Source: a virus
Strand: one strand, 5' to 3'
UHGV virus genome: UHGV-0253772
DNA length: 44,914 nt
Positions 13,806-35,657 of this stretch are shown piece by piece. Position 1 is the first letter of the stretch. The number at the start of each line of letters is the position of its first letter. The position numbers and the translations under genes were made by a program. The notes under the pieces were generated by a model. That model saw only the letters and a program-made list of their open reading frames with translations. It made no database searches and was not told where the DNA came from.

Positions 13806-13812
13806 ATTAATT

Positions 13813-13887
13813 TGGAGCATCCAGAGGGAATCGAACCCTCAACCTCAGTTTGGAAGACTGTAATTTTCCCGTTTAAACTATGGATGC
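13813..13887 (-). tRNA. tRNA-Gly (anticodon UCC)
   Basis: acceptor gcatcca/tggatgc, T-arm gaggg-TTCGATT-ccctc, loop ctTCCaa. Confidence 0.6.
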
Positions 13888-13893
13888 ACTAAT

Positions 13894-13969
13894 TGGTGGA
13901 GTCACTGAGAATTGAACTCAGTTCCCAAGTTTGCAAAACTCGAATTTTAACCATATAAACTATGACCCC
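13894..13969 (-). tRNA. tRNA-Ala (anticodon UGC)
   Basis: acceptor with G3-U70 pair typical of Ala identity, anticodon loop ttTGCaa. Confidence 0.6.
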
Positions 13970-13974
13970 AATTT

Positions 13975-14050
13975 TGGTACAGGTGGAGGGAATTGAACCC
14001 ATCGTCTTACTGATTAAGAGTCAGCCGCATAACCATTTTGCTACACCTGC
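13975..14050 (-). tRNA. tRNA-Lys (anticodon CUU)
   Basis: anticodon stem gctga/tcagt, loop ctCTTaa; T-stem only 3 clean pairs. Confidence 0.5.
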
Positions 14051-14057
14051 ATTAATT

Positions 14058-14134
14058 TGGTACACCTAGAGAGATTCGAACTCACACTGAGCAGATTCTA
14101 AGTCTGCTGCCTCTACCAATTGGGCTATAGGTGC
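14058..14134 (-). tRNA. tRNA-Leu (anticodon UAG), atypical short variable arm
   Basis: D-loop CAATTGGTAGA, anticodon stem gcaga/tctgc perfect, loop ctTAGaa, discriminator A, 5 nt variable region. Confidence 0.55.
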
Positions 14135-14377
14135 ATTAAATCTTTTTAGAGAACTTCTAAGAACCTAAGCAACAAGGTTCCACAACAAGCTGTAATAACC
14201 TTAGAAGCCCTCTAAAAAGACCTAATTTGGTCTTTGCATAGTCTTGTTTAATCCGGTGACTAGAACCTTTGGAGAGCTTGATATTATCTCTTCTCCGTGA
14301 CACCTACTAGGTGCTTTACTGTGCGTGTACGACAATACACGAGGGATAAACCGAAAATGCGAGCAAGCATGGACGGA

Positions 14378-14719
14378 TTAAATCTTTAAGCTAAGTTCAG
14401 TCTTAGACTTGACATCTTTAGCTTTGTAGATGACAACTTTATCAAGTGGTTCAATGTAAACAGCTAAGTAATCAACTTGAGAGTTATCAAAATTCATTAT
14501 TCTATTTTCATTCTTGTTAGAACGAACTCTTTTCAGTTGCACTCTCCAAAGTTCACCTCTTTTGACTGATGTTGATTTTACCTCAACAGTCTCAATCAAG
14601 CCATCTTTGTGGACTAGAAAGTCATACTTTGCATTATCTGTAGCTGGTGAATACACTTCATAACCTCTTTTGAGGAAAGCTAATTGTGTAGCAATTTCAC
14701 CTACTGAACCTTTCTTCAT
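14378..14719 (-). CDS. Hjc-like PD-(D/E)xK nuclease (Holliday-junction-resolvase-like fold)
   Basis: motif order GSxGE ... YDFLV ... IETVEVKS matches the E-D-ExK signature of Hjc-type nucleases; ATG at 14719 with AAGGTGA upstream; the ORF-track start at 14728 is a GTG. Confidence 0.45.
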   Translation of the reverse strand: MKKGSVGEIATQLAFLKRGYEVYSPATDNAKYDFLVHKDGLIETVEVKSTSVKRGELWRVQLKRVRSNKNENRIMNFDNSQVDYLAVYIEPLDKVVIYKAKDVKSKTELSLKI

Positions 14720-14740
14720 AATCATCACCTTAAATTATTT

Positions 14741-14827
14741 TGGCAGAGAGTGCAGGAGTTGAACCCGTACCGTTTCCAGCAGCACCAGTTTTCAAGGCTG
14801 GTTGGTCTCCGTTGACCGCCACTCTCT
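14741..14827 (-). tRNA. tRNA-Ser (anticodon UGA), long variable arm
   Basis: 87 nt, perfect 7 bp acceptor agagagt/actctct, loop ctTGAaa, extra arm present. Confidence 0.6.
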
Positions 14828-14831
14828 CCGA

Positions 14832-14902
14832 AACAATCTTTGGCAGGGGTGTAGAGATTCGAACTCTAATCAAGAATTTTGGAGACTCTATTGCTGCCAT
14901 AG
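14832..14902 (-). tRNA. tRNA-Trp (anticodon CCA)
   Basis: acceptor aggggtg/cacccct, T-arm tagag-TTCGAAT-ctcta, loop ctCCAaa. Confidence 0.6.
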
Positions 14903-15050
14903 CTCACCCCTATTAAAACTACAATTCGAAGCTTACCGTATTATCTCAACACTGTAAAGCCCCTTCTCAGATTATTTACATGTTCTGGAAAACATGAGAT
15001 ACAGACCACCTCCCTACAGGAAGACCCGCTTAGGTCGTCTAAGTAATCTG

Positions 15051-15127
15051 CTAACTAATTGGCACACCCTACAGGATTCGAACCTGTAACTAACGATTTA
15101 GAAGACCGTTGCTCTATCCAATTGAAC
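15051..15127 (-). tRNA. tRNA-Arg (anticodon UCU)
   Basis: T-arm acagg-TTCGAAT-cctgt perfect, anticodon loop ctTCTaa. Confidence 0.6.
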
Positions 15128-15473
15128 TAAGGGTGCATTAATCTTTAAAGACTCTCTTAGAAAGCCCTTAAAGATGCCCACCTTATTAATCATACCGTGG
15201 GCTAGTACGCCAAATTCTTTGATGAGGGATTGGAATACCTCACTGGTGTTTAGCCTATCAAGCTACTGCCAGAAAAACATTGTCGTTTGCATTTATTTTA
15301 AATTTGCAAAATAGACGCTACGCAACGAAAACTATTCAGAATATGTACAACAAATTTCCCCACATTGTGTTACGTCTAACGCTCATGTATTGGTGTTTGA
15401 ATTATACATATTATGAATTATTTTTAGTTACTATAAAGTAGTCACATCTTAATGTCAACAACTTTATTGAAAT

Positions 15474-15549
15474 TGGTACTGGTAGGTGGAATCGAACCAC
15501 CGATGTTCCCTTATCAGGGGAGTGTTATAACCTTCTTAACTATACCAGC
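15474..15549 (-). tRNA. tRNA-Ile (anticodon GAU)
   Basis: T-arm ggtgg-TTCGATT-ccacc, anticodon loop ctGATaa. Confidence 0.6.
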
Positions 15550-15550
15550 T

Positions 15551-15627
15551 TGGAGGTTCAGATGGGAATCGAACCCACATTCATAGGGCTTATGAAACCC
15601 CTGCATTACCTTATCTGCGACTGAACC
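15551..15627 (-). tRNA. tRNA-Met (anticodon CAU)
   Basis: anticodon stem with three consecutive G-C pairs, loop ttCATaa; cannot distinguish initiator, elongator or Ile2 by eye. Confidence 0.55.
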
Positions 15628-15705
15628 ATAATAAGTACCCTAGTTAGAGAAACTGTTGAGTGGGTGTTTCCAGCCGCGCAGGTGTTTCTCAGTTAAGGGT
15701 GAATT

Positions 15706-15781
15706 TGGTAGAAGTGGAGGGATTCGAACCCATCGCCTGTCAGATTAAAAGTCTGCCGCATCACCATTCTGCTACACTTCC
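15706..15781 (-). tRNA. tRNA-Lys (anticodon UUU)
   Basis: T-arm similar to the Lys(CUU) gene, anticodon loop ctTTTaa. Confidence 0.55.
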
Positions 15782-16239
15782 ATTAAATTATCTTTGTAGA
15801 TAAGCTACCCAGACTTGCTTAAGGTCTGTAGCGATGTGCCTTTTTGGGTTTAAATCTAGAATTTACCCTTTCACCCTTTGTGGTCGCATACTCACAGGTA
15901 AGCTTAATAACTTATCTACAAAGATAATTACCAGACCGTTGTTTATCATCTTAAGTGCTACCATTACACCAACTCGACATCTGCCGAGTGAAGGAATCGA
16001 ACCTTCGCCTTTTCTTTACCGGAGAAATAGATTGTTTAAGTTTTGCTGTAAACGGTCTTCTGTAAATTTGTTGAGCCAGACCAAGTTTTAAATTTTTTCA
16101 AAATTAAATTGGCTTGAAAATATCATACGTACTTGCTGAATTTGGTCTTCTGCTCCTTTAAAGAATACTCGTAAGAACTCTTTAAGGGAGGGGCTAAATA
16201 GCCCTCTCAAAACATCATTTTGAAATACTTATTATAATT

Positions 16240-16316
16240 TGGCGGCTACGATGAGACTTGAACTCACATCATCTCCCGTGACAGGGGAGTATTTTCTCCA
16301 GTTAAACTACATAGCC
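16240..16316 (-). tRNA. tRNA-Asp (anticodon GUC)
   Basis: anticodon stem ctccc/gggag perfect, loop ctGTCac. Confidence 0.6.
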
Positions 16317-16321
16317 TCTAT

Positions 16322-16409
16322 TGGTGTGCCGTGTAGGAGTCGAACCTACCGAGTCTCAATGACAAGGGATTTACAGTCCCCACCGCTACCATCTACGGGA
16401 TAACGACAC
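16322..16409 (-). tRNA. tRNA-Tyr (anticodon GUA), long variable arm
   Basis: 88 nt, T-arm gtagg-TTCGACT-cctac, loop ctGTAaa, extra arm. Confidence 0.6.
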
Positions 16410-16418
16410 ATTTTAATT

Positions 16419-16495
16419 TGGCGGTTAGTCAGGGATTCGAACCCTGTGCCATTCGCTTAACAGGCGACCGCACATACCTTATGTGCTTCCTAACC
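16419..16495 (-). tRNA. tRNA-Asn (anticodon GUU)
   Basis: T-arm caggg-TTCGAAT-ccctg, D-stem gcac/gtgc, loop ctGTTaa. Confidence 0.6.
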
Positions 16496-16571
16496 TTAAT
16501 ACATTACCAGACCGTGTTTTTCTTTTATCCGCAAAAAGTAGTTTGTTGCTGAATACGGTCTTCTGTAAAAT

Positions 16572-16648
16572 TGGAGGCGGGTGCAGGAGTCGAACCTGCC
16601 GATACCATGCTAATGAGACATGTGAGACGCCCTTTCTCTATACCCGCA
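16572..16648 (-). tRNA. tRNA-Met (anticodon CAU), second copy
   Basis: T-arm gcagg-TTCGACT-cctgc, anticodon stem catgt/gcatg, loop ctCATta; acceptor boundaries uncertain. Confidence 0.45.
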
Positions 16649-16739
16649 ATTCTTAATGACCAGACCAAATCTCTTCTTTGTCCGATTTACCTTCAGATGA
16701 ATAAGATTAAGTTTGCTGTAATTGGTCTTCTGTCAAAAC

Positions 16740-16817
16740 TGGCGTTCCAGAAGGGATTTGAACCCTCAGATATCCACTTTGAAAGAGTGGTGACTTTACC
16801 ATTTTGTCTACTGGAAC
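16740..16817 (-). tRNA. tRNA-Glu (anticodon UUC)
   Basis: acceptor gttccag/ctggaac, anticodon stem ccact/agtgg perfect, loop ctTTCaa. Confidence 0.6.
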
Positions 16818-16824
16818 ATTAATT

Positions 16825-16901
16825 TGGTCTCTGTTGGAGGACTTGAACCTCCGGCCTTACCGCCCCAAACGGAACGCTCTACCAAGCTGAGCTAAACAGA
16901 G
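16825..16901 (-). tRNA. tRNA-Pro (anticodon UGG)
   Basis: acceptor ctctgtt/aacagag, T-arm ggagg-TTCAAGT-cctcc, loop ttTGGgg. Confidence 0.55.
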
Positions 16902-27326: not shown

Positions 27327-27337
27327 AATATCTTAAG

Positions 27338-27370
27338 AGCCTCCTTAATCGGGGGCTTTTTAATTTTTAT
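27338..27370 (+). terminator. rho-independent terminator ending the plus-strand block
   Basis: hairpin AGCCTCC-ttaatc-GGGGGCT followed by a T-rich run. Confidence 0.55.
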
Positions 27371-27399
27371 AAAATTTTATCGGTTGTCCCAACCTCTGG

Positions 27400-28900
27400 G
27401 TCACCATCATATGTGAATAAGATATCTACCCTTCTTAATAGCCTTCTTAATCTTACTCTCTATATAGTTATATAGTACTATACAGTATCTTAGTAACTAT
27501 CTAGTGGTCTTAATAGCCCTCTGTATAGCCCTTCTAAACACTCTTCTAACAAGCCTTCTTAACAGCCTATACAATCACCTTAACCGTACCTCTACACCCT
27601 CTTAGAAGCCCCTATACACCTCTTAATCTCTATGTCAGCTATGATACCCTCTATATGTGTTCACTAGGGAATACTAAGCCTCTATATAGACTGTTTTAAC
27701 AAACTTAACAGGAATATCTTCACAGACCTTATCTCACAAGGTCTAACACGGTACTAACAAGGTATCTTATAAGCCTGTTTATGCCTGTATTTTTAAAAGA
27801 CTGTATAGGTAATTATTCAGAATTTTAAAATTTTTATAAAATAGGACTATCAAGTCATTTTTTAGGGTCTTTGAAGGAACTGAAAAATATCTGTAGAAGA
27901 TGTATATCTGCTTGGTAGCCCTTAACATCCCTGTAACATCCCCTTTGCAGAATTTTAAAATATCATTAACAATCTCTTAACAGCTATTACATTCTCTTAA
28001 CATCTCTTCAGAGGTCTTAACAGATTCTTAACAGAACTAACAAGGGTGTAACAAGTTCTTAACAGTCAATACATGGTCTTTATAGTTTCTTAACAGATGA
28101 CTAACAATAGCTAACAAGTTAATTTTTAAGAGTTATTTTGTAGGGATTGGTAACAATACCAATTAAGATAATTAACAAGTTTCTAACAAGTGTTTAATCT
28201 TTTTAACAAGCTATTAACATGGTCACTATCTCTTTTCTTATCATTCCCTTTCCCTCTTAGTGATTCTCTAAATAGCCCTCTTAAAAGCTCTCTATAGCTC
28301 CTTGTAAGCTCTTTTAAGCCTCTTCCTAGTAGTTACACCCCAACTGTACAGACACCTTTTTATAGGGCTTTACAGGGGCTTTAAAGGCTATGTCAAAGGT
28401 TCTTACAAGGCTTTTACGTGGTCTTAACAGAGATTTAACAAGGGGCTAACAAGTTGCTAACAAGTGCCTTAAAAGCATAACTATGTAGGGATTGTTAAGA
28501 AATTGTTAAGGGGGCTAGCATTTACGTAACTTTTAAGCTATCTATCACGTAACTTTGAAGTAACTTTATAGCCCCTATAACATACTTTTTAGTGACTATC
28601 AAGGGGATTGTTTAGTTATTCACAAGATACTAACGAGATAATAAAGCTCACACCCTTATAAGATTCTTTTAAGCCTCTATAAAGCCCTGTAAAGAGCTTT
28701 TAAGGGTGAGTTAATGCAATCCCTTAAGTTAGATTGATAAGGCTGTTATAGCGCTTTATAGAGCGTTTAAGTGGGCCATCCCCTTTCTGGGGTTATTGGC
28801 TTATATTTAAGTTGATTTGATAAAAGGCTATAGAGTAGACTATAGAGTTATTGCTTTTAAGGTCTGATAAGATTCTGAAAAGGTGAGGAAAGGGATTGTA
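27400..28900. repeat. ORF-free region dense in short TAACA(A/G)-type motifs and other short direct repeats
   Basis: no ORF of 60 aa or more on either strand; roughly 30 copies of cTTAACAG / cTAACAAG-like motifs, clustered at 27960-28230 and 28420-28465. Confidence 0.6.
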
Positions 28901-28918
28901 TAAGGATTGGATAGACGT

Positions 28919-28940
28919 AAAAAAGCCCCTGTGAGGGGCT
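28919..28940 (-). terminator. rho-independent terminator ending the minus-strand small-gene array
   Basis: minus-strand hairpin AGCCCCUCACAGGGGCU followed by U6. Confidence 0.6.
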
Positions 28941-28980
28941 GTATAAAGGTATCTGGGGCTATTTAGCCCCGTTGCGTCGA

Positions 28981-29229
28981 TTAGTTGTAACCTTGTTTAT
29001 TGTAGTACAGTGAGACAATCAAGTCACCCCAGTAATGATAGTGATGCTCATCGTTTAATGCCTCTTTTACAGCGTCTTTCCAGAAGTCATCAGTAGGGTT
29101 ATAATCTGGGATAACTTGCTTGATAACTGTCTTCACTAATGAAAAGCATTCATCAGTTCCACCGATATCAAATTTAACGTCCAGAGTATAACAGCCATAA
29201 GCATTGACAGTTGCGCGGATAGTTGCCAT
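28981..29229 (-). CDS. hypothetical small protein
   Basis: 82 aa; ATG preceded by the conserved type A cassette with GGAGA RBS. Confidence 0.55.
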   Translation of the reverse strand: MATIRATVNAYGCYTLDVKFDIGGTDECFSLVKTVIKQVIPDYNPTDDFWKDAVKEALNDEHHYHYWGDLIVSLYYNKQGYN

Positions 29230-29303
29230 TTTCAGAATCTCCTAGTTTAAGGACTTTATTTAGTGGGGAAGGTCATTCCCTCCCCGTTGATTAGTAATTT
29301 ACT
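29230..29303 (-). repeat. intergenic cassette repeat, type A (copy 1)
   Basis: conserved gaatctccagtttaggac...tttagtggggaaggtcattccctccccgttgatt core with hairpin. Confidence 0.7.
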
Positions 29304-29562
29304 GCATGTTGGCGTATGTTGCAAGCCTTTTTTCGTTGTATTTTGTCAGAATCTCACAAGATAAAACATCATATTTTGTAACCGCTTTGCCTTTGTCGAG
29401 GTCAAAGAATCCGAACGCTTTACCGTCTTTGAATCCGACAACTTCGTAAGATTCTTTAACGATTTCACCATTGAACAAATCGCTTTCGATGCGGTGAAAC
29501 AGTGCTACGTCTTCTTTGTCAGTTGCAATTTGTAAAAGTGTGGTCAGCTCGACGTGTTCCAT
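29299..29562 (-). CDS. hypothetical small protein
   Basis: 87 aa; start defined by type A cassette. Confidence 0.55.
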   Translation of the reverse strand: MEHVELTTLLQIATDKEDVALFHRIESDLFNGEIVKESYEVVGFKDGKAFGFFDLDKGKAVTKYDVLSCEILTKYNEKRLATYANMQ

Positions 29563-29632
29563 TTCGAATCTCCAGTTTAGGATTTTATTTAGTGGGGAAG
29601 GTCATTCCCTCCCCGTTGATTGACAATTTACA
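29563..29632 (-). repeat. intergenic cassette repeat, type A (copy 2)
   Basis: same conserved core; spans stop of upstream gene to ATG of downstream gene. Confidence 0.7.
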
Positions 29633-30158
29633 GATTTTTGATTGTCTCGTCAATGTCTTTTTCAATATCTTTTAAAGTTTTTTCTAAGTTCTTGATATTG
29701 AACGTTAAACCTTCTCCCAGTGTCTTAGAGTAACCGCTAGGACGTAAATCATAAAGCTCGATTTCTTCCACTAGAGAAAGGTTAACAGCCCAGCCACCTA
29801 TGCCGTAGGCCATTGAAACGGTATTTACAGGGGCTTTATAGAACTTGTTCAAGGACTTGATAGAACGTTCATAAGCCATTTTATAACCATTTAAAAGGTT
29901 TTTAACGTGGTTGTGAACGTTTTTACAATCATCTAAGTAAAGACCTAAAAACATCGGGAGAAGTTCCGCGACAGCTTGCATAAAGTGAGAGACTACAACG
30001 GTGGAAACATTGCGACGATGGACGTAATAAGCCCCGTTTTCTGATTTGGTAATGGTTGCAAAGTGTACACCATTGCAACGAAATTCATAGGTATCTTTAA
30101 CAGGCTTTGACATTACAGCATTTGAACGAATGAAGTTGATAGCTTGAAATTTGTTCAT
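29628..30158 (-). CDS. hypothetical protein
   Basis: 176 aa ORF, start defined by cassette. Confidence 0.55.
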   Translation of the reverse strand: MNKFQAINFIRSNAVMSKPVKDTYEFRCNGVHFATITKSENGAYYVHRRNVSTVVVSHFMQAVAELLPMFLGLYLDDCKNVHNHVKNLLNGYKMAYERSIKSLNKFYKAPVNTVSMAYGIGGWAVNLSLVEEIELYDLRPSGYSKTLGEGLTFNIKNLEKTLKDIEKDIDETIKNL

Positions 30159-30228
30159 TTTAGAATCTCCAGTTTAGGACTTTATTTAGTGGGGAGGTTA
30201 TTGCCTTCCCGTTGATTAGTAATTTACT
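30159..30228 (-). repeat. intergenic cassette repeat, type A variant (copy 3)
   Basis: variant hairpin ggggaggttattgccttccc. Confidence 0.65.
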
Positions 30229-30377
30229 TGTTTTGATAGCTGATTGCAAGCAATTTTTTAAGTTTATCTATAAAGAATCTTTTAAGTGAATCCCTTTTAG
30301 ATAAACCCCCTCGAACAAATGTACTATTGTCAAGGGGTATCGTCAAGTAATTTTTTAAAGTTTTTATAAGTTATTGA

Positions 30378-30719
30378 TTAACTGATGAATATTTTTTCAG
30401 GCTTTACATAGCTGATACGCTGACTTTTTAGCAGGTCATCCCAGATTAGCGCGGCAATATGAGAATAGCCGGATTCACGTAAAAGTTTCATTGTTTTACT
30501 TCTCGTCTCAAAGCGGCTTGCGTAGTATTCACTGTTCAAGGTTGTTTTATTCCCTTCGTTGTCTGTATGGATGATTTGCATCACTTGAAAGGGGCTTACA
30601 TCCTCACCTTTGTTCCACTGCTCAAAGTATTTTAGGCACTGCATAGGTGATATCTTATCACTTACTTGAGTTGACCAAGATGAACCCTCTTTATCAGTAA
30701 TTACAGTTACATAAGCCAT
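30378..30719 (-). CDS. hypothetical protein
   Basis: 113 aa ORF. Confidence 0.55.
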   Translation of the reverse strand: MAYVTVITDKEGSSWSTQVSDKISPMQCLKYFEQWNKGEDVSPFQVMQIIHTDNEGNKTTLNSEYYASRFETRSKTMKLLRESGYSHIAALIWDDLLKSQRISYVKPEKIFIS

Positions 30720-30792
30720 TTTAGAATCTCCAGTTTAGGACTTTATTTAGTGGGGAAGGTCATTCCCTCCCCGTTGATTGACAATTTACAGA
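30720..30792 (-). repeat. intergenic cassette repeat, type A (copy 4)
   Basis: conserved core. Confidence 0.7.
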
Positions 30793-30808
30793 TTTTTATC
30801 AGGCTTGT

Positions 30809-31042
30809 CTAGTCTTTTTCAATGATAATTTCATACTGACCATCTACGCTGTCAAAATAGACACCATCTTCATCTTCTGTCTTAAAGTAGCATTGAATAT
30901 CATCACTGGCGGGATAGTCTTGTCTTGCTATCTGGCAAACTTGAATAGCATTTTCTTTACTCCCTGTAAACTCCTCAAGCCCTTTAAAATCACATGAATG
31001 ACCATTACAAATAGAAAGGATAAGATAAACGGTTGTAAGCAT
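30809..31042 (-). CDS. hypothetical small protein with N-terminal hydrophobic/signal-like segment
   Basis: 77 aa; the only array gene without a cassette immediately upstream. Confidence 0.45.
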   Translation of the reverse strand: MLTTVYLILSICNGHSCDFKGLEEFTGSKENAIQVCQIARQDYPASDDIQCYFKTEDEDGVYFDSVDGQYEIIIEKD

Positions 31043-31105
31043 GATTTAAGCCCTTTAAATGGCCCTGTATGGGCCTTAAGTTGGAAGTTGGTGTCTTTGT
31101 ACTGA

Positions 31106-31669
31106 TTAACCTAAAAAGTCTTTTAAATTGCGCTCTGTGATGTTTGCCGTGATTTTATCCAACAAGTCACAAAACACGGAACTATCACCGCTATTCTGTA
31201 CAATTTTCGCCATACTTAACAAATCATCGTCAACATAGCCTAAATTGCGGTTAGTTGCATCTGGTACAAAGAAAGGTGCATACATCGCACTAAATTTCGT
31301 CGAGTGAAGGCCAATAATCCAACCTTTATCAAAGTGTCCGGTAAAGCTGGCGATATCACTCATGTTGTCACAAGAATAATCATCCTCTAGCTCTTCCTCT
31401 GGGATATCCATCTCAATGACAATTACGTCCTGCGTTTCCATTTGGAAAGCTGCCGTAATAAGCCCAGATTCTAAAGCGTTTTGAATGCAGCGTTCACGAA
31501 TGTAAGAATCTTCCTCATCTTCCAGACATTCCGTTTTGATAATCTTGTTCATTGGGTAAACGTAGAAACAATCATCCATGTATGAGCAGTTCCAGATTCC
31601 TTCCGGCTTGTCGCCACCATTCAGCAGGTTTACAAAGTTTTTGATGGTAGTTCCGTGATAGCATTTCAT
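31106..31669 (-). CDS. hypothetical acidic protein
   Basis: 187 aa, D/E-rich. Confidence 0.55.
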   Translation of the reverse strand: MKCYHGTTIKNFVNLLNGGDKPEGIWNCSYMDDCFYVYPMNKIIKTECLEDEEDSYIRERCIQNALESGLITAAFQMETQDVIVIEMDIPEEELEDDYSCDNMSDIASFTGHFDKGWIIGLHSTKFSAMYAPFFVPDATNRNLGYVDDDLLSMAKIVQNSGDSSVFCDLLDKITANITERNLKDFLG

Positions 31670-31762
31670 TTTTGAATCTCCAGTTTAGGATTTAGTGGTA
31701 AAGCTCTTTATCTGGGGCTTAAGATACCAACTTTTTAAGCCCCTTGTAAAGTACTTTATTAC
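31670..31762 (-). repeat. intergenic cassette repeat, type B (copy 1)
   Basis: shares RBS-proximal core with type A but carries GGGGCTTAAG...CTTAAGCCCC hairpin plus ttgtaaagtactttat. Confidence 0.7.
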
Positions 31763-31960
31763 TTAATTTTTGACAACTTTTAAAACTGCAAGATAACCTA
31801 AGCAATAAGAATCACCGAAGAGAGTTCTACCCATGAAAGAATCCTCTTTGATATCCTTTGCAGTGACAGTTTTTTCTACGCCGTGGGAAAGGACTACATC
31901 ACCAACTTTGATATCTTTGATGTGTGTTGTTTCAATGGTTAAGCCGTTAATAATAGCCAT
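31763..31960 (-). CDS. hypothetical small protein
   Basis: 65 aa ORF. Confidence 0.45.
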   Translation of the reverse strand: MAIINGLTIETTHIKDIKVGDVVLSHGVEKTVTAKDIKEDSFMGRTLFGDSYCLGYLAVLKVVKN

Positions 31961-32030
31961 TTTAGAATCTCCTAGTTTAAGGACTTTATTTAGTAGGGAG
32001 GTTATTGCCTCCCCGTTGATGAGTAATTTA
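31961..32030 (-). repeat. intergenic cassette repeat, type A variant (copy 5)
   Basis: conserved core with variant hairpin. Confidence 0.65.
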
Positions 32031-32060
32031 ATCTATCTAAAAATCAGTGTCAACATCTTT

Positions 32061-32465
32061 TTAAAGTTCTGCGTAGATTGCATCACAGACATCACGGAAA
32101 TCATGATTTGTTAAGTTACGTTGTAACCAAGTGGCAAAGAAATCAGCGATTGCAAAATTAGCGTCATACTCGACGGATAGCCACACTTTAACAGCAAATC
32201 GGAACATCTTTAAATCAAGCTCTTTATTCATTACCTTTGATTTGCCTAACATGTCGGCCATCTCATGTTGTGCACCGTCTAGCGTGATACCGGCTGCAAC
32301 GTCAGCCAATGAGTTTTTTACGCTTTCAACGTCTAAGATAATACTTTGAATCTTCCCAATAATGTTTTGCAGTGTTTCATCTGGTGCTGATGATGTGATA
32401 ACATTAATCCGGTTGACGGTCAAACGTGCTTTTAAGATAGATAACTCACGATTATTAATAGCCAT
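32061..32465 (-). CDS. hypothetical protein
   Basis: 134 aa ORF. Confidence 0.55.
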   Translation of the reverse strand: MAINNRELSILKARLTVNRINVITSSAPDETLQNIIGKIQSIILDVESVKNSLADVAAGITLDGAQHEMADMLGKSKVMNKELDLKMFRFAVKVWLSVEYDANFAIADFFATWLQRNLTNHDFRDVCDAIYAEL

Positions 32466-32553
32466 TTTTGAATCTCCAATTTAGGATTTAGTGGTAAAGC
32501 TCTTTATCTGGGGCTTACTTTATCGAACTATAAGCCCCTTGTAAAGTACTTTA
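32466..32553 (-). repeat. intergenic cassette repeat, type B (copy 2)
   Basis: GGGGCTTA...TAAGCCCC hairpin variant. Confidence 0.7.
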
Positions 32554-32823
32554 TGCTAAATGCAGCTTTTTGCCTTTTACTATGATGTAACTTGATGCGC
32601 TATTGCCGCATACATCTTGATAAATTCTACGCAAACGGCCTTCGTAGTATACTTTCCAGCTAGTTGGAATCTTTTTCCCGTATCCGGTAGCAGTTTTTTG
32701 GAATCCTGCAAGTTGCCAATCCAAAATGTGCTGTTCAGCTTGTAAATCCTCGAAGTGCATTACACCGTTTACATAGTGGCGTAGGGTTACGTTTAAGGTG
32801 CGACCGTTGTTAGTAGTGTACAT
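32551..32823 (-). CDS. hypothetical protein
   Basis: 90 aa ORF. Confidence 0.5.
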   Translation of the reverse strand: MYTTNNGRTLNVTLRHYVNGVMHFEDLQAEQHILDWQLAGFQKTATGYGKKIPTSWKVYYEGRLRRIYQDVCGNSASSYIIVKGKKLHLA

Positions 32824-32897
32824 TTTTGAATCTCCTAGTTTAAGGACTTTACTTAGTGGGGAAGGTCATTCCCTCCCCGTTGATTAGTAATTTACTT
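32824..32897 (-). repeat. intergenic cassette repeat, type A (copy 6)
   Basis: conserved core. Confidence 0.7.
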
Positions 32898-32913
32898 GTT
32901 TTTAAAACTAAAA

Positions 32914-33246
32914 TCAAGAGAAATTTTTTCGTTTGTTCAGTTCTTGGACAATTACAGTGTAATAGTCTTTTAAGTCACTGATATTTAAAGCATTTATCAG
33001 AGAGTTATAATCATCGACAAGCTGAAAATTATCTTTGAAAATGTCGCTGATTTGATAAGTTTTTGATTGAAATCTGAAGCTCATTTCTAACCGTTTTATT
33101 TGTTCATCACTTAAACGCTCCAGAAAGCTCATTACAAGGCTATTATTAACCTGTTGCGTGATTGCCTTACTTGCCAAATTATATGCGCTATAAGCCTTGT
33201 ACAGTGCTATAATGGCAATGATTGCAGTGATACCCATCATTAACAT
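32914..33246 (-). CDS. hypothetical membrane-anchored protein
   Basis: 110 aa, N-terminal TM helix, start overlaps upstream gene end. Confidence 0.5.
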   Translation of the reverse strand: MLMMGITAIIAIIALYKAYSAYNLASKAITQQVNNSLVMSFLERLSDEQIKRLEMSFRFQSKTYQISDIFKDNFQLVDDYNSLINALNISDLKDYYTVIVQELNKRKNFS

Positions 33247-33536
33247 GGTGCTTCCTCTTTACGTGATACTTTGCCATTTAAAGTTATCTCATAAGACTCT
33301 AGTAAATCACTTTCAGACTTAACAGGACTTTTACAAGTATCATCATAAACATTAATTTGCAATACAGGCTTTTTATACTCCCTGCAACTATTCCATAAGC
33401 AAATCACTACACGACGGCCTTTTATTTTGCCGTGTAACCATTCCATAACCTCATGAGTATTTCTTGAGGTCTCGATAAAATCGATTTTGTTGAGTAACTT
33501 GCTTAGATTTTCCCTAACTTTATTTGATAATTTCAT
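33240..33536 (-). CDS. hypothetical protein
   Basis: 98 aa ORF. Confidence 0.5.
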   Translation of the reverse strand: MKLSNKVRENLSKLLNKIDFIETSRNTHEVMEWLHGKIKGRRVVICLWNSCREYKKPVLQINVYDDTCKSPVKSESDLLESYEITLNGKVSRKEEAPC

Positions 33537-33627
33537 TTTTGAATCTCCAGTTTAGGATTTAGTGGTAAAGCTCTTTATCTGGGGCTTAAGATATCAGCTT
33601 TTAAGCCCCTTGTAAAGTACTTTATCA
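33537..33627 (-). repeat. intergenic cassette repeat, type B (copy 3)
   Basis: conserved core with GGGGCTTAAG hairpin. Confidence 0.7.
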
Positions 33628-33882
33628 GATTAAATTGCCAGTTAATGATAAGTGCATTTTATAGCCTTTTTTGGTAAAAACGTTCACTTTACCCAGTGTT
33701 TTTACACCTTTAAAAAGGTTGTTTGAACTGCGTTTTAAAGTTAACTGCTTATCAACCTTCACGCCCCACCTTACAGCAGATTGTTTCCCGTTGTCAATCA
33801 CTTTCCCGCATAACTTTTTAGCCATGTTGCGAGCGTCATCACGAGTCTTTGTAGTAATTACAACGTTTTTGATAATAGCCAT
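33625..33882 (-). CDS. hypothetical basic protein
   Basis: start moved to the ATG at 33882 that follows the cassette RBS; 85 aa. Confidence 0.5.
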   Translation of the reverse strand: MAIIKNVVITTKTRDDARNMAKKLCGKVIDNGKQSAVRWGVKVDKQLTLKRSSNNLFKGVKTLGKVNVFTKKGYKMHLSLTGNLI

Positions 33883-33972
33883 TTTTAAGTTCTCCAATTT
33901 AGGATTGAGTGGTAAAGCTCTTTATCTGGGGCTTACTTTATCGAACTATAAGCCCCTTGTAAAGTACTTTAT
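33883..33972 (-). repeat. intergenic cassette repeat, type B (copy 4)
   Basis: conserved core. Confidence 0.7.
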
Positions 33973-34352
33973 TTGTTAATTTTGAAGATAGTTACATAAC
34001 CATCGCTGCCGATGATTTGTGATGCTCCAGCTTTTTCTACTTGATAGCCCATATTTTCAAGATGATAAACAGCATCATCATAACCATATGCGCCGCCTTG
34101 ATAACGTCTCTTATCACATCTTACTAATACCTTTCCACGTCCAGCAAGTGCATTTAGTACAGCTTTTTCACTTGAAAGTGTACCATCTAACATGGTTGCC
34201 GTGTAATGGTTGATTCTATTCCCGTTTACATCATACTTAAAATTGAATGCGTGAACAACGATAATGTTACCTTTAAAATTTTCATCAAGTGACTTCTCCA
34301 GTGCGTTGCGAAAGTTGTCTTTGTTGATGAATTTAGGTGCACGGTATTTCAT
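33969..34352 (-). CDS. hypothetical protein
   Basis: 127 aa ORF. Confidence 0.55.
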   Translation of the reverse strand: MKYRAPKFINKDNFRNALEKSLDENFKGNIIVVHAFNFKYDVNGNRINHYTATMLDGTLSSEKAVLNALAGRGKVLVRCDKRRYQGGAYGYDDAVYHLENMGYQVEKAGASQIIGSDGYVTIFKINK

Positions 34353-34412
34353 TTTTGAATCTCCAGTTTAGGACTTTATTTAGTGGGGAAGGTTATTCCC
34401 TCCCCGTTGATG
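34353..34412 (-). repeat. intergenic cassette repeat, type A (copy 7, most upstream)
   Basis: conserved core; truncated upstream part. Confidence 0.65.
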
Positions 34413-34599
34413 CAAATACTAGGTAACCACGTTCAAAGAGTCAAGAAAAATTTTAAAAATATTTTTAGCAAAACTGTAATGAAACGGGCGCACACGACTA
34501 CCACAAAACAGAACTATAATCAAGAATTATTTTTCAATCCGCTACAAATTTTTCTGTTGACTTTTATTTCCAGATGTGGTAGCCTTGTGAGAAATGGCG

Positions 34600-34810
34600 A
34601 CATCCCCACCTGCACCCACCTACCTGCACAATTCTAAAATGATTTTTCTTGCCCGACCTGAGCGGGGTCTGCACGTTTTGAAAATGAAAAAGCTCTTTGG
34701 AGATTACCTGCACAGTTTGAAAATGAATTTTCTCTTTGGAGTTCAAAATTTTCTCTACAGATTTCTGTCCAGAACTCTACCTGCACAATCCTGAAATGAA
34801 AAAGCCCTCC
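34600..34810. repeat. four direct repeats CTGCAC(A/G)..(T/C)TGAAAATGA in a 450 bp noncoding stretch
   Basis: copies near 34632, 34668, 34708 and 34775; candidate promoter/operator region upstream of the minus-strand array. Confidence 0.5.
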
Positions 34811-34871
34811 TTACCTGAAAATTTACCAGATAAGAAAGGCTTAACCTATTGTGAATATTCTACAGAGTTTC

Positions 34872-35657
34872 TTAGTTCTTTGCGTCTAAGAAGGTTACTT
34901 CCGGTGAAGAGAAAATTTCCTCAACATCCTCATCAGTTCTTGCATAGATATATGTATCTGCATCACTGCCAAATGTTACTGCAATTCTGTGATTGCTCTT
35001 CGACAGGTGGGTAACTAGAGCGTTACTTAGAGACATCTTTTCAACCGGAGGGTTACTTTGATGTATCTTGCCTTTTCTTCGTCTGAAGAGGGTAACTGTA
35101 TCATCAGTGAACACTACTACACCTGCAAAGTATTCTGGTTCACAGTAGTTCTTCCAACCTGAGCGTAACTTGTGGTACATCTCACCTTCGTAGACATACA
35201 GATACACATCTACATTCTTCATCACCTGATTAATGATAACAGTGACGGCTTGAGGGTCTAGTCCACCGATACCTGCACCAATCATAGGTAACCCAACTTT
35301 CTTCAACTGATTGACTTCACAGTATCTGTTAAGCTGTTTCAAAGATGACTCTAAAGCACTGTATCGGGCATCTTTACCAGTCTTAAGCTGGGTGTAAAGG
35401 TTAGCTATACATCCTTGTCTTAAACGTGCTACAGAGAAATTGCCTAGTAAATTCTCACAGGGCTTGTGGCCTATGCCACCTGCATACAGATAAACTTCTG
35501 TATCAGTCTCGTATGCTTTTGGGTAAAATTTAGAAATCTTGTCAGCGATACCTGCACCCATTAAGTTCATACAGTTGCAACCGTGACCGATGACATCAAA
35601 CTTACCTTTATCAAATGCTGCAAAGATATCACCGTTGATGATTTTTACAATACCCAT
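34872..35657 (-). CDS. macrodomain protein, TARG1/DarG-like, with unassigned C-terminal domain
   Basis: N-terminal motifs INGDIF...FDVIGHGCNCMNLMGAGIA and later KVGLPMIGAGIGGLD resemble the TARG1-type macrodomain signature (recognised from memory, not searched). Confidence 0.55.
   Translation of the reverse strand: MGIVKIINGDIFAAFDKGKFDVIGHGCNCMNLMGAGIADKISKFYPKAYETDTEVYLYAGGIGHKPCENLLGNFSVARLRQGCIANLYTQLKTGKDARYSALESSLKQLNRYCEVNQLKKVGLPMIGAGIGGLDPQAVTVIINQVMKNVDVYLYVYEGEMYHKLRSGWKNYCEPEYFAGVVVFTDDTVTLFRRRKGKIHQSNPPVEKMSLSNALVTHLSKSNHRIAVTFGSDADTYIYARTDEDVEEIFSSPEVTFLDAKN

What the first reader, a model, noticed from the sequence alone, without database searches (positions are those of the whole stretch)
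28981..34412. Array of 13 small genes separated by 11 copies of a conserved promoter/stem-loop-like cassette in two subtypes
Seen: almost every gene is separated from its neighbour by a 60-90 bp element running from the stop codon of one gene to the ATG of the next. All copies share the RBS-proximal core (CUAAACUGGAGAUUCnAAAAUG on the mRNA). Type A (7 copies) has a GGGGAGGG/CCUUCCCC hairpin with a compensating G-U. Type B (4 copies) has a perfect GGGGCTTAAG...CTTAAGCCCC hairpin. Established: T4-type hyperplastic regions use repeated promoter-early stem-loop elements as recombination linkers between accessory genes. Inference: this is a modular accessory or anti-defence locus in which genes are exchanged as cassettes.
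Basis: partly seen in the sequence, partly recalled or inferred. Interest (0 to 1): 0.75.

Follow-up and report, generated by a model that had tools for sequence, protein, structure and literature searches.

The report
Repeated promoter–hairpin cassettes between phage genes
In this Felix O1-like phage, 11 of 13 small early genes of unknown function carry their own copy of a repeated promoter-plus-hairpin-plus-ribosome-site cassette, and related phages gain and lose genes at these cassettes, as already described for T4-like phages but not for this group.

Summary
On the minus strand of 28981-34444 lie 13 small genes and 11 repeated intergenic elements: 7 type A and 4 type B. The elements occur nowhere else in the ~87 kb genome.

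The window is a Felixounavirus (Felix O1-like myovirus). Each element is a sigma-70-type promoter fused to a GC-rich hairpin and a standardised leader with Shine-Dalgarno site and ATG.
- **Type A:** the -35 sits exactly 17 nt from TAAATT, often inside the preceding gene. The hairpin starts 10 nt after the -10.
- **Type B:** TTTACA-N17/18-TAnnnT, with the -10 in the hairpin loop. The hairpin extends to about 20 bp.

Stems covary across 13 genomes of three genera and are sense-strand specific, which points to RNA.

Eleven close relatives show 9 different gene contents. Every gain, loss or allele swap is bounded by elements, and the crossovers I mapped lie inside them.

This matches the sequence-level definition of the PeSL (promoter-early stem-loop) cassettes of T4-like phages, here in the unrelated subfamily Ounavirinae. 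The Felix O1 genome paper listed a few of these repeats without interpreting them.

Promoter activity and the hairpin's role remain untested.

Verdict: new member of a known kind, moderate interest.

The parts
34353..34444 (-). Type A element 1, the first promoter of the array: -35 TTGACT (34444-34439), N17, -10 TAGTAT, hairpin 34385-34405, leader, SD GGAG
33883..33973 (-). Type B element 1: -35 TTTACA (starts 33963), N17, -10 TAAAGT in the loop; upper hairpin 33928-33956; 70-nt structured part 33904-33973
33537..33626 (-). Type B element 2: TTTACA (starts 33616), N17, TATCTT; upper hairpin 33581-33609; structured part 33557-33626
32824..32917 (-). Type A element 2: -35 TTGATT overlapping the stop codon of the preceding gene, N17, TAAATT; hairpin 32858-32878; core allele CCTTAAACTAGGAGATTC
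32466..32555 (-). Type B element 3: TTTACA (starts 32545), N17, TAAAGT; upper hairpin 32510-32538
31961..32053 (-). Type A element 3: TTGACA (starts 32053), N17, TAAATT; hairpin 31995-32014 (GGGGAGG/CCTCCCT)
31670..31760 (-). Type B element 4: TTTACA (starts 31750), N18, TATCTT; upper hairpin 31714-31743
30720..30811 (-). Type A element 4: TAGACA (starts 30811, overlaps the stop codon), N17, TAAATT; hairpin 30752-30772
30159..30249 (-). Type A element 5: TTGCAA, N17, TAAATT; hairpin 30191-30211 (weakest stem, GGGAAGG..CCTCCC)
29563..29653 (-). Type A element 6: TTGACG (starts 29653, inside the preceding CDS), N17, TAAATT whose TAA is the stop codon; hairpin 29594-29614
29230..29324 (-). Type A element 7: TTGCAA (inside the preceding CDS), N17, TAAATT whose TAA is the stop codon; hairpin 29265-29285
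33969..34352 (-). Gene f2, 127 aa, phrog_4495, unknown function
33625..33882 (-). Gene f3, 85 aa, phrog_5089, unknown function; relatives carry an alternative 96-aa allele
33240..33536 (-). Gene f4, 98 aa; overlaps f5 by 7 nt, so this pair has no element between them
32914..33246 (-). Gene f5, 110 aa, unknown function
32551..32823 (-). Gene f6, 90 aa; paralogue of the gene at 31763-31960
32061..32465 (-). Gene f7, 134 aa, unknown function
31763..31960 (-). Gene f6', 65 aa; absent, together with f8 and f9, from Felix O1 and Sl26
31106..31669 (-). Gene f8, 187 aa; equals Bas63 g107, which is conditionally important on E. coli S17-1
31043..31105 (-). Spacer without an element or promoter; different hairpin GGCCCATACAGGGCC. 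Replaced in DaR-2019b and Bas63 by a terminator-like AGCCCC..GGGGCTTTT
30809..31042 (-). Gene f9, 77 aa, unknown function
30378..30719 (-). Gene f10, 113 aa, unknown function
29628..30158 (-). Gene f11, 176 aa, phrog_4725, unknown function
29299..29562 (-). Gene f12, 87 aa; absent from Felix O1, NBEco005, Bas63 and Mushroom
28981..29229 (-). Gene f13, 82 aa; last gene of the array; absent from Mushroom
28924..28940 (-). Canonical intrinsic terminator that closes the array (AGCCCCTCACAGGGGCT plus TTTTT)
34802..34842 (-). Canonical intrinsic terminator of the upstream phosphatase gene; it isolates the array from upstream transcription
   Evidence: t13 in PMC3185647

Best explanation
The locus is a hyperplastic early-gene array of a Felix O1-like phage. 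It sits between two canonical terminators.

**What each element is.** Eleven of the 13 small genes have their own PeSL-type regulatory cassette; f5 overlaps f4 and f9 follows f8 with no cassette between them. From 5' to 3' the cassette has:
1. an AT-rich stretch;
2. a host sigma-70 promoter;
3. a GC-rich hairpin;
4. a standardised AU-rich leader;
5. a GGAG Shine-Dalgarno site 8-9 nt before the ATG.

**Type A.** The promoter is TTGaca-N17-TAAATT. The predicted start lies 2-4 nt before the 8-bp hairpin, so the transcript would begin with a 5'-terminal stem-loop.

**Type B.** The promoter is TTTACA-N17/18-TAnnnT.
- The 5' arm of the hairpin fills the promoter spacer, the -10 lies in the loop, and the 3' arm covers the start region.
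- The roughly 20-bp hairpin can therefore form only in RNA that reads through from an upstream promoter.

**What I infer the hairpins do.**
- They act on the sense RNA as stability and insulation elements.
- They would block 3' exonucleases, or attenuate read-through, at the end of the upstream cistron.
- In type A they would also protect the 5' end of the element's own transcript.
- They would not be efficient intrinsic terminators, because none is followed by a U-tract.

**Evolutionary consequence.** The 65-95-nt cassettes are repeated head to tail every 0.3-0.6 kb. Homologous recombination between them deletes, inserts or swaps promoter-plus-gene units without disturbing the neighbours. This produces the observed diversity of gene content.

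**Shown here:** anatomy, promoter geometry, stem covariation, strand asymmetry, restriction of the elements to the array, and element-bounded indels with mapped crossover intervals.

**Inferred:** promoter activity, start sites, the RNA-level role of the hairpins, and the recombination mechanism.
For: **Identity of the window.** It is a Felixounavirus: 258 phage records match, the best being AYO145A at 92%.

**Promoters.**
- The scan finds TTGACA/TTGACT/TTGACG/TAGACA-N17-TAAATT or TAGTAT, and TTTACA-N17/18-TAAAGT or TATCTT, at the elements.
- Over 78 type A/C copies from 13 genomes, the hexamer at spacing 17 matches TTGACA at 4.79 of 6 positions, against 0.8-1.6 at spacings 12-22. This holds although that hexamer lies outside the repeat, often in coding sequence.
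- In about 70 type B copies the loop sequence varies. Nearly every copy still has TAnnnT 16-18 nt (almost always 17) after TTTACA, with ten different hexamers. The two exceptions are AYO145A, with TAAAGC, and one Erwinia copy, with TGnGACTAT.
- The 20 nt upstream of the -35 are 65-95% AT, against an array average of 63%.
- Felix O1 encodes no RNA polymerase, and ORFs 16, 20, 21 and 22 of its array peak 5 min after infection (PMC3185647).

**Hairpins.**
- There are 17 distinct type A/C stems and 17 distinct type B stems at fixed positions.
- On the structure-aware alignment of 71 type B copies, 97.9% of cells pair against 91.0% in shuffles (0 of 500 reach it). Fifty cells carry a change on both sides against 11.2 expected (0 of 500). 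Sliding the partner drops pairing to 34-55%.
- The Erwinia phage keeps the architecture with GGTG/CACC in place of GGGG/CCCC.
- G.U pairs are frequent, and the covariance model scores 55-96 bits on the sense strand against 24-43 on the antisense strand. The structure is therefore read on the sense strand.
- Type B folds at -20.7 to -24.5 kcal/mol with z of -2.7 to -3.9.
- The 8 nt after each hairpin hold only 1-2 U, whereas the two flanking terminators have U-tracts.

**Array specificity.** There are no copies in the rest of the window or in the other 45 kb of AYO145A.

**Cassette turnover.**
- There are 9 gene-content architectures among 11 genomes that are about 90% identical.
- The junctions are visible.
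- The crossover for the f14 loss in this window lies in the SD-ATG module. The crossover for the f12 loss in three phages lies within GTAAATT, the -10 and stop codon.
- Scars are present: tandem elements separated only by an ATG in Michonne, and a duplicated first promoter in NBEco005.
- f16 arrives with its own copy of the promoter found downstream of f7.
- The two SD-proximal core alleles assort independently of hairpin type.
Against: - I found no transcript mapping for any Ounavirinae phage. Start sites, promoter strength and any processing are predictions.
- The generic promoter scan is not enriched over shuffles for the region as a whole: 22 sites against 18.2 +/- 4.7. The case rests on position-specific conservation.
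- The type A -10 (TAAATT) and the type B -35 (TTTACA) are imperfect.
- Most compensatory cells derive from a few lineage-level events that spread among copies by concerted evolution. The number of independent events is small, probably 4-6.
- The lower stem of type B is mostly invariant. One pair covaries (GC 46, UA 6) but is broken in 5 rows.
- The structure-aware alignment was fitted to the model.
- Hairpin position is fixed relative to the promoter and the ATG (31-35 nt in A, 44-45 nt in B). It is not fixed relative to the upstream stop codon in type A, where the distance is 13-166 nt. That weakens the reading of the hairpin as the 3' end of the upstream cistron for type A.
- In RB49, a PeSL stem-loop reduced reporter expression as much as rrnB T1 (PMC2839356). 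Real termination therefore cannot be excluded.
- Element-bounded indels would also be favoured by selection against truncated genes, not only by the recombination mechanism.
Confidence: 0.68

Rival explanations
1. The hairpins are true transcription terminators or attenuators, as proposed for T4-type PeSLs. Each gene would then be a fully isolated promoter-to-terminator unit, and read-through between genes would be minimal.
For: - The PeSL stem-loop of RB49 cut lacZ expression as strongly as rrnB T1 (PMC2839356).
- The hairpins are GC-rich, with 8-9 bp stems and GGGG/CCCC at the base.
- Neighbouring Felix O1 array genes show different kinetics, at 5 min and at 25 min.
Against: - None of the more than 140 copies examined has a U-tract. 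The tails are ACUAAAUA or AGAUAAAG, with 1-2 U in 8 nt.
- The same phage uses canonical hairpin-plus-U-tract terminators at both ends of the array and, in some relatives, in the f8-f9 spacer.
- In type A the hairpin lies just downstream of its own predicted start. An efficient terminator there would abort the gene's own transcript.
Confidence: 0.15
2. The array is one polycistronic early operon driven only by the first promoter at about 34444. The repeats would be RNA processing sites between cistrons, comparable to the RNase III sites of the T7 early region. The internal -35/-10 matches would be incidental.
For: - Type B folds into about 20 bp with a 3x3 internal loop, a shape reminiscent of T7 R1.1-type RNase III substrates.
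- The structure is sense-strand specific.
- The first promoter is the closest to consensus (TTGACT-N17-TAGTAT), and the array is bracketed by terminators.
Against: - In type A the -35 is conserved at exactly N17 in non-repeated sequence (4.79 of 6 against about 1.3).
- TAnnnT persists in otherwise variable type B loops.
- Neither fact is explained by an RNA processing role.
- Type A is only an isolated 8-bp hairpin, too short for RNase III.
- Processing and internal promoters are not mutually exclusive, so part of this rival may hold alongside the main explanation.
Confidence: 0.1
3. The inverted repeats are DNA-level sites. They could be operators for a dimeric phage or host regulator that shuts off the early promoters, or targets of a site-specific recombinase or nuclease that mobilises the cassettes.
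For: - TAAAGTACTTTA, which overlaps the type B -35, is a perfect 12-bp palindrome, and a second near-copy (TAAAGAGCTTTA) follows the hairpin.
- Arbiol et al. speculated that the GGGG...CCCC stem could be a protein target.
- The mapped crossovers cluster at element edges.
Against: - G.U pairs would be A.C mismatches on the other strand.
- The model scores much lower on the reverse strand.
- Several different stem sequences coexist in one genome at equivalent positions, with compensatory changes. That fits base-pairing rather than recognition of one sequence by one protein.
- No array protein matches any Pfam family, recombinases and nucleases included.
Confidence: 0.05

Closest known systems
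PeSL (promoter-early stem-loop) cassettes of the T4-like phages RB49/phi1 (Arbiol et al. 2010, PMC2839356)
   Same: - Elements run from stop codon to ATG.
- They combine an AT-rich stretch, a sigma-70-like promoter with N17 spacing, a GGGG...CCCC stem-loop and a Shine-Dalgarno site.
- The stem-loop overlaps the -10, or lies just downstream of it, in the commonest subclasses.
- They are clustered between small ORFans in a hyperplastic region.
- Indels between close relatives are bounded by elements, with crossovers mapped between the -10 and the ATG.
   Different: - The host lineage is different: Ounavirinae, not Straboviridae. Blast searches with single elements hit only Ounavirinae records, so there is no detectable sequence homology.
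- Here a single array holds all copies, rather than many regions around the genome.
- The leader is far more standardised: only two core alleles across this window and 10 close relatives.
- Type B has an additional lower stem that includes the -35.
- Promoter activity, terminator activity and mini-circle formation were demonstrated for RB49 and are untested here.
PeSL/PmSL elements of T4/PST and KVP40/nt-1 (Comeau et al. 2014, PMC4122927)
   Same: - They are composite promoter and stem-loop motifs next to indels in hyperplastic regions.
- The promoter consensus of the T4/PST pair (TTTACW-N17-TAYWAT) is very close to the type B promoter here (TTTACA-N17-TAnnnT).
   Different: - In those phages the stem-loop lies just upstream of the promoter and is A/T-flanked.
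- Here it lies across or after the -10.
RNase III processing hairpins between the early genes of phage T7 (textbook knowledge, not tested here)
   Same: - An intercistronic, irregular hairpin of about 20 bp with an internal loop, in a co-oriented early operon transcribed by host polymerase (type B only).
- In T7 it leaves a protective 3' hairpin on the upstream mRNA.
   Different: - T7 sites do not contain promoters.
- Type A is too short for RNase III.
- No cleavage data exist here.
5'-terminal stabilising stem-loops such as the ompA leader (Emory, Bouvet and Belasco 1992; from memory)
   Same: In type A the hairpin is predicted to begin 2-4 nt from the 5' end of the transcript. That is the geometry needed to hinder 5'-end-dependent decay.
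   Different: - It does not apply to type B's own transcripts.
- The start sites are predicted, not measured.

Membership tests
PeSL (promoter-early stem-loop) cassettes | Sigma-70-like early promoter (-35, about 17 nt, -10) inside each element | tested here: met
   All 11 window copies and about 150 copies in 13 genomes have it. Type A -35 scores 4.79 of 6 at N17 against about 1.3 elsewhere. Type B is TTTACA-N17/18-TAnnnT. This is sequence-level evidence only.
PeSL (promoter-early stem-loop) cassettes | Stable stem-loop, typically GGGG...CCCC, placed in or next to the promoter (five positional subclasses) | tested here: met
   Type B spans the -10. Type A starts 10-11 nt after the -10. Stems covary. 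The subclass definitions are in PMC2839356.
PeSL (promoter-early stem-loop) cassettes | [quoted passage not shown] | tested here: met
   65-95% AT in the 20 nt upstream, against 63% for the array. The enrichment is modest where this stretch is coding sequence.
PeSL (promoter-early stem-loop) cassettes | [quoted passage not shown] | tested here: met
   GGAG lies 8-9 nt before the ATG in all copies. In type A copies the stop codon lies in or just before the promoter, serving as the TAA of TAAATT in two and overlapping the -35 in two. In type B it lies 1-8 nt before the conserved AGTACTTTACA motif.
PeSL (promoter-early stem-loop) cassettes | Concentrated in a hyperplastic region of small, non-essential ORFans | tested here: met
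   All copies lie in one 5.4-kb array and none elsewhere in about 87 kb. The 13 proteins have unknown function. The neighbouring 46-66 kb stretch of Bas63 scored uniformly non-essential, although the array itself (64.6-70.5 kb) only partly overlaps it.
PeSL (promoter-early stem-loop) cassettes | Insertions, deletions and replacements between close relatives are bounded by the elements | tested here: met
   There are 9 architectures among 11 genomes. All events are element-bounded, and two crossover intervals map inside elements.
PeSL (promoter-early stem-loop) cassettes | Demonstrated promoter and terminator/attenuator activity in vivo | not testable with these tools
   This needs reporter fusions or transcript end mapping. 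The lack of a U-tract argues against strong termination.
PeSL (promoter-early stem-loop) cassettes | Recombination between flanking elements yields excised mini-circles | not testable with these tools
   This needs inverse PCR on infected cells or virion DNA. Tandem-element scars are compatible with it but are indirect.
Intrinsic (rho-independent) terminators | GC-rich hairpin immediately followed by a U-tract | tested here: not met
   The terminator scan does not call any element, and the tails hold 1-2 U in 8 nt.
T7-type RNase III processing sites | Intercistronic irregular hairpin of about two helical turns with an internal loop | tested here: inconclusive
   The predicted type B fold fits, but its lower stem is weakly supported. 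Type A does not fit. Cleavage itself is not testable here.
Any curated RNA family (Rfam 15) | Match to a covariance model | tested here: not met
   No match at E <= 1 in 28500-35000.

The most novel reading that the evidence does not exclude
The type B element would be a dual-coded unit. The same 70 nt would serve as a promoter on the DNA and, on read-through RNA, as a roughly 20-bp hairpin that sequesters the RNA copy of that promoter and is cut or bound by a double-strand-specific factor. Candidates are RNase III or a phage protein. Each gene's message would then be severed from upstream transcription exactly where a fresh transcript begins. Alternatively, the conserved hairpins are recognition sites for a dedicated recombination activity, which would make the array an integron-like cassette system in a lytic phage.
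Probability: 0.12. Interest if true: 0.7.

Novelty: new member of a known kind. Interest (0 to 1): 0.42.

Why it matters
- It extends the PeSL principle beyond T4-like phages to an unrelated myovirus subfamily. In that principle, repeated self-contained promoter and stem-loop linkers let phages plug accessory genes in and out. The extension suggests the principle is a general, probably convergent, solution for organising hyperplastic regions.
- It answers part of an open remark in the Felix O1 genome paper, which asked how transcription proceeds through this region. Candidate early promoters are now defined.
- It gives a compact, portable set of parts (promoter, hairpin, leader, ribosome site) for engineering Felix O1-like phages, which are used in Salmonella and E. 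coli biocontrol.
- It explains why gene content in this array differs between otherwise near-identical therapeutic phage candidates.

Tried and rejected
- **Phage RNA-polymerase promoter.** CCACTAAAT resembles the T3/SP6 core. I dropped this because Felix O1-like phages encode no RNA polymerase (PMC3185647) and the motif lies in the leader downstream of a good sigma-70 geometry.
- **Alternative type B promoter upstream of the hairpin (-10 TACTTT).** There is no conserved -35 in the variable upstream gene ends, whereas TTTACA-N17-TAnnnT is almost universal.
- **Second promoter in the type B 3' flank (CTTTAC...).** No TAnnnT lies at the right distance.
- **MAFFT alignment for covariation (A1).** The inner pairs were blurred by a misplaced 1-nt gap in the B' variant. 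I replaced it with a covariance-model alignment.
- **First model search.** It mixed sense and antisense hits. I repeated it at E <= 1e-10.
- **First type A folds.** I had clipped the 5' arm and redid them.
- **ORF caller errors.**
  - My ORF caller fused f12 and f13 in phage mio; the annotation shows both genes.
  - In Sl26 it started f10 inside a hairpin.
- **Rfam.** Nothing.
- **Pfam and PHROGs on all 13 proteins.** No function assigned.
- **Literature searches for transcription start maps of Felix O1-like phages.** None found.
- **Integron attC analogy.** I considered it but did not pursue it. No integrase-like protein is in the array, and the elements contain promoters and ribosome sites.
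- **Not used.** The large protein homology, structure prediction and metagenome searches, because gene function was not decisive for the question.

Full report
**1. What is there**

The window is part of a Felix O1-like myovirus (genus Felixounavirus).
- Region 28900-34500 matches 258 phage records, almost all named as Escherichia, Salmonella, Shigella or Citrobacter phages. The best is vB_EcoM_AYO145A, at 92% identity over 86%.
- All genes of the finding are on the minus strand.
- Read in mRNA sense, there are 13 ORFs of 65-187 aa from 34352 down to 28981.
- Eleven of the twelve junctions between them, counting the one upstream of the first gene, carry a repeated element.
- One gene pair overlaps by 7 nt (33240-33536 / 32914-33246).
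- One spacer (31043-31105) is unrelated.

The repeat finder separates two families, with 7 type A and 4 type B copies.

The shared core CCTAAACTGGAGATTC occurs 8 times at up to 3 mismatches, against 0.43 expected by chance.
- Seven of those matches lie in the array.
- Three more copies carry the allele CCTTAAACTAGGAGATTC.
- The remaining copy, the type B element upstream of 33882, reads CCTAAATTGGAGAACTTAAAA.

The second gene starts at ATG 33882.

The array is bracketed by two canonical terminators, at 34842-34802 and 28940-28924. These correspond to t13 and t23 of Felix O1.

**2. Anatomy of the elements**

*Type A* reads as follows:
- a -35-like hexamer (TTGACT, TTGATT, TTGACA, TAGACA, TTGCAA, TTGACG, TTGCAA);
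- 17 nt;
- TAAATT (TAGTAT in the first copy);
- 10 nt (ACTAATCAAC or a variant);
- an 8-bp hairpin, GGGGAGGG-loop-CCTTCCCC;
- ACTAAATAAAGT;
- CCTAAACTGGAGATTCnAAA-ATG.

The -35 lies outside the repeated sequence, and in several copies inside the preceding gene. In two copies the stop codon TAA is the first half of the -10.

Over 78 type A or related copies from 13 genomes, the hexamer at spacing 17 matches TTGACA at a mean of 4.79 of 6 positions. At every other spacing from 12 to 22 the mean is 0.8-1.6. That is hard to explain except by selection for a sigma-70 promoter.

*Type B* reads as follows:
- TAAAGTAC;
- TTTACA;
- 17 or 18 nt;
- TAAAGT or TATCTT;
- AAGCCCC;
- AGATAAAGAGCTTTACCACTAAAT;
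- the core and ATG.

The 5' arm (GGGGCTTAA/T) fills the promoter spacer, the -10 sits in the loop, and the 3' arm covers the start region.

Across about 70 copies the loop sequence varies. Nearly every copy still has TAnnnT 16-18 nt (almost always 17) after TTTACA, with ten different hexamers. The two exceptions are a copy in AYO145A with TAAAGC and one in the Erwinia phage with TGnGACTAT.

The 20 nt upstream of the -35 are 65-95% AT.

Felix O1-like phages encode no RNA polymerase. In Felix O1, array ORFs 16, 20, 21 and 22 peak 5 min after infection, while ORFs 17, 19 and 23 peak at 25 min. Neighbours in one co-oriented array therefore behave differently, as expected for separate units.

**3. 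The hairpins are selected structures, read on the sense strand**

I collected the elements from three sources:
- ten other Felixounavirus genomes;
- Citrobacter phage Michonne (Mooglevirus);
- Erwinia phage vEam_PM_6 (Kolesnikvirus).

There are 17 distinct stems for type A and its variants and 17 for type B, all at the same positions relative to the promoter.

The Erwinia phage keeps the whole type B architecture, TTTACA, arm, TAnnnT, arm, (A/T)GATAAAGA. Its stems differ, however: GGTG...CACC and GGGGTTA...TAACCCC.

- The flanks UAAAGUACUUUA, which include the -35, and UAAAGAGCUUUA pair to form a lower stem.
- The result is about 20 bp with a 3x3 internal loop.
- The free energy is -20.7 to -24.5 kcal/mol, with z of -2.7 to -3.9.
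- Type A is an isolated 8-bp hairpin.

I built a covariance model of the extended type B structure.
- It finds 71 sense-strand copies at 55-96 bits in the window and 13 loci.
- Four are in the window, and none is in the other 45 kb of AYO145A.
- The reverse strand of the same sites scores only 24-43 bits.

Counts on the resulting alignment:

| Measure | Observed | Shuffled control |
|---|---|---|
| Cells that pair | 97.9% | 91.0% (0 of 500 reach it) |
| Cells with a change on both sides | 50 | 11.2 (0 of 500) |
| Pairing when partners are slid 1-3 columns | 34-55% | - |

Four of the nine upper-stem pairs show compensatory changes. The lower stem is mostly invariant. One of its pairs covaries (GC 46, UA 6) but is broken in 5 rows, so the lower stem is only weakly supported.

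G.U pairs are common, for example 53 of 57 rows at one lower-stem pair. Together with the strand asymmetry of the scores, this argues for an RNA, or sense single-strand, structure rather than a symmetric protein-binding palindrome.

Caveats:
- The alignment was fitted to the model.
- Copies within a genome evolve in concert. For instance, all Michonne copies share GGGGTTT, and four Erwinia copies share GGTG.
- The independent compensatory events therefore number a handful, not fifty.

**4. Consequences for mechanism**

- In type A the hairpin begins 10-11 nt after the -10, which is 2-4 nt after the expected start. The element's own transcript would begin with a stem-loop.
- In type B the expected start lies at the foot of the 3' arm. 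Only RNA reading through from upstream can form the hairpin.
- None of the hairpins has a U-tract; the tails are ACUAAAUA or AGAUAAAG. The terminators at both ends of the array have one.
- The hairpin-to-ATG distance is constant, at 31-35 nt in A and 44-45 nt in B. The distance from the upstream stop codon is 12-19 nt in B but 13-166 nt in A.

From this I infer that the hairpins work on RNA as stability and insulation elements, with at most partial attenuation, and not as efficient terminators. This step is inference. In RB49 a PeSL stem-loop behaved as a strong terminator in a reporter assay, so the terminator reading is kept as the main rival.

**5. Cassette turnover**

Proteins of 11 Felixounavirus arrays were clustered and the spacers classified. 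There are 9 different gene contents among the 11 genomes, always in the same order.

| Gene(s) | Distribution |
|---|---|
| f15 | absent from this window, AYO145A, Mushroom, Sl26 |
| f14 | absent only from this window |
| f2-f3 | absent from Felix O1 |
| f16 | present only in SME50, MET-P1-301, Sl26 |
| f6'-f8-f9 | absent from Felix O1 and Sl26 |
| f12 | absent from Felix O1, NBEco005, Bas63, Mushroom |
| f13 | absent from Mushroom |
| f20 | present only in DaR-2019b |

f3, f6' and f8 also exist as alternative alleles whose divergence stops at the elements.

Mapped junctions:
- The f14 loss in this window keeps the complete upstream type B element. It switches to the downstream sequence within roughly CTGGAGATTCAAAAATGA, the SD-ATG module.
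- The f12 loss in three phages switches within GTAAATT, the -10 and stop codon.

Other signs of recombination at the elements:
- f16 comes with its own copy of the promoter that otherwise follows f7.
- In Michonne, two tandem type B elements are separated only by an ATG.
- NBEco005 has a duplicated first promoter with a gene stump between the copies.
- The two core alleles assort independently of hairpin type, which shows exchange inside elements.

Intergenic DNA is about 21% of the array, yet every breakpoint seen lies there. Selection against truncated genes may contribute to that bias.

**6. Comparison with what is known**

The PeSLs of T4-like phages are defined by these features (PMC2839356 and PMC4122927):
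- an AT-rich stretch;
- a sigma-70-like early promoter;
- a stem-loop, often GGGG...CCCC, in one of five positions relative to the promoter, most commonly between the boxes or overlapping the -10;
- a Shine-Dalgarno site and ATG;
- location in hyperplastic regions;
- association with indels;
- promoter and terminator activity;
- formation of mini-circles.

All six sequence-level features are met here. The three experimental ones cannot be tested with these tools.

The elements are confined to Ounavirinae, with no T4-like phage among the hits:

| Element | Records | Places |
|---|---|---|
| Type B | 287 | 1,365 |
| Type A | 248 | 1,148 |

This is therefore the same kind of device in an unrelated lineage, without sequence homology.

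The Felix O1 genome paper listed a 57-bp repeat, which is the type B hairpin region, and a 39-bp repeat, which is the type A promoter. It gave no interpretation and said that transcription through the region was not understood.

AYO145A annotates two generic promoters in the array. One lies in the type A element downstream of f7, and the other is not in an element. I found no description of the array as repeated regulatory cassettes, and no start-site mapping. The held library lacks many subscription papers.

**7. Function of the genes**

- All 13 proteins fall in PHROGs of unknown function and have no Pfam match.
- In the Bas63 knockout study the neighbouring 46-66 kb stretch scored uniformly non-essential. 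The array itself spans 64.6-70.5 kb and only partly overlaps that stretch.
- g107, which corresponds to f8, is conditionally important on one host.
- The validated counter-defence genes g79, g80, g84, g85 and g130 lie outside the array, which spans g98-g111.
- 'Accessory' is therefore reasonable, and 'anti-defence' is unsupported.

**8. Verdict**

- It is a new member of a known kind: PeSL-type cassettes in Ounavirinae.
- It has two features worth noting, the fully standardised leader and a promoter embedded in a hairpin of about 20 bp that only read-through RNA can form.
- Interest is moderate. A phage genomics specialist would find it tidy and useful rather than surprising.

Noticed in passing
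window 30227-30377 (-), inside the 219-nt spacer between the genes at 30378-30719 and 29628-30158: An extra non-coding segment of about 130 nt lies upstream of the type A element. It is almost invariant from Felixounavirus to Mooglevirus. It has tandem TTGACA boxes (TTGACnATACCCCTTGACA) and two strong adjacent hairpins (dG -32.2 kcal/mol, z -4.9, 0 of 200 shuffles as stable). There is no Rfam match. It could be a small RNA gene or a regulatory leader. Sl26 annotates a 41-aa ORF there, and AYO145A annotates a promoter.
   Followed up: partly
window 34420-34870 (-): A non-coding stretch of about 450 nt separates the phosphatase terminator from the first array promoter. It holds four or five copies of a motif of about 34 nt, TTCATTTTCAAAnnGTGCAGGT, ending in GTGCAGGTAGGTGGGTGCAGGTGGGG. 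It is conserved in length (about 505-520 nt in most, 635 nt in NBEco005) in all relatives. Its function is unknown.
   Followed up: no
window 27330-28920: A 1.6-kb ORF-free region lies between the two convergent transcription units. It is packed with short repeats of the form (C/T)TAACA(A/G), partly at 11-nt spacing (for example 28424-28475), and with many inverted repeats. The phage mio record starts in this region and annotates repeat_regions there. It may therefore hold the genome terminus or terminal repeat, or an origin.
   Followed up: partly
window 32551-32823 and 31763-31960 (-): Two genes of the same array, of 90 aa and 65 aa, are paralogues that fall in one BLAST cluster. This indicates duplication within the array, presumably through the flanking elements.
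   Followed up: partly
all 11 elements, e.g. window 30720-30745 (-): The conserved core forms a small hairpin that pairs (U)CC(U) with the GGA of the Shine-Dalgarno site. The two core alleles, CCTAAACTGGAG and CCTTAAACTAGGAG, differ by a complementary T/A co-insertion that lengthens this stem from 3 to 4 bp. The Erwinia phage has CCTTAAACAGGAA and CCCTTATAAAGGAA with the same logic. This may tune translation, but the sites are tightly linked, so the evidence is weak.
   Followed up: partly
L012 (Citrobacter phage Michonne) 7349-7520; L006 (NBEco005), first promoter region: These look like recombination scars. In Michonne, two complete type B elements lie in tandem, separated only by an ATG. 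In NBEco005, the first promoter-hairpin element is duplicated with a gene stump of about 50 nt between the copies.
   Followed up: partly
window 31043-31105 (-) and the same spacer in L004 and L008: This is the one spacer with no promoter element. It carries GGCCCATACAGGGCC here, but a canonical terminator-like AGCCCCTTGTAGGGGCTTTT in DaR-2019b and Bas63. The change goes together with a different C-terminal allele of the upstream gene (180 against 187 aa).
   Followed up: no
window 11114-16901 (-): A cluster of 27 tRNA genes, more than the 22 reported for Felix O1.
   Followed up: no
GenBank GU169904.1 'Staphylococcus phage SA1' (hits): This 147-kb record, labelled as a Staphylococcus phage, contains several Felix O1-type elements at about 92% identity. 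That suggests a chimeric or contaminated assembly.
   Followed up: no
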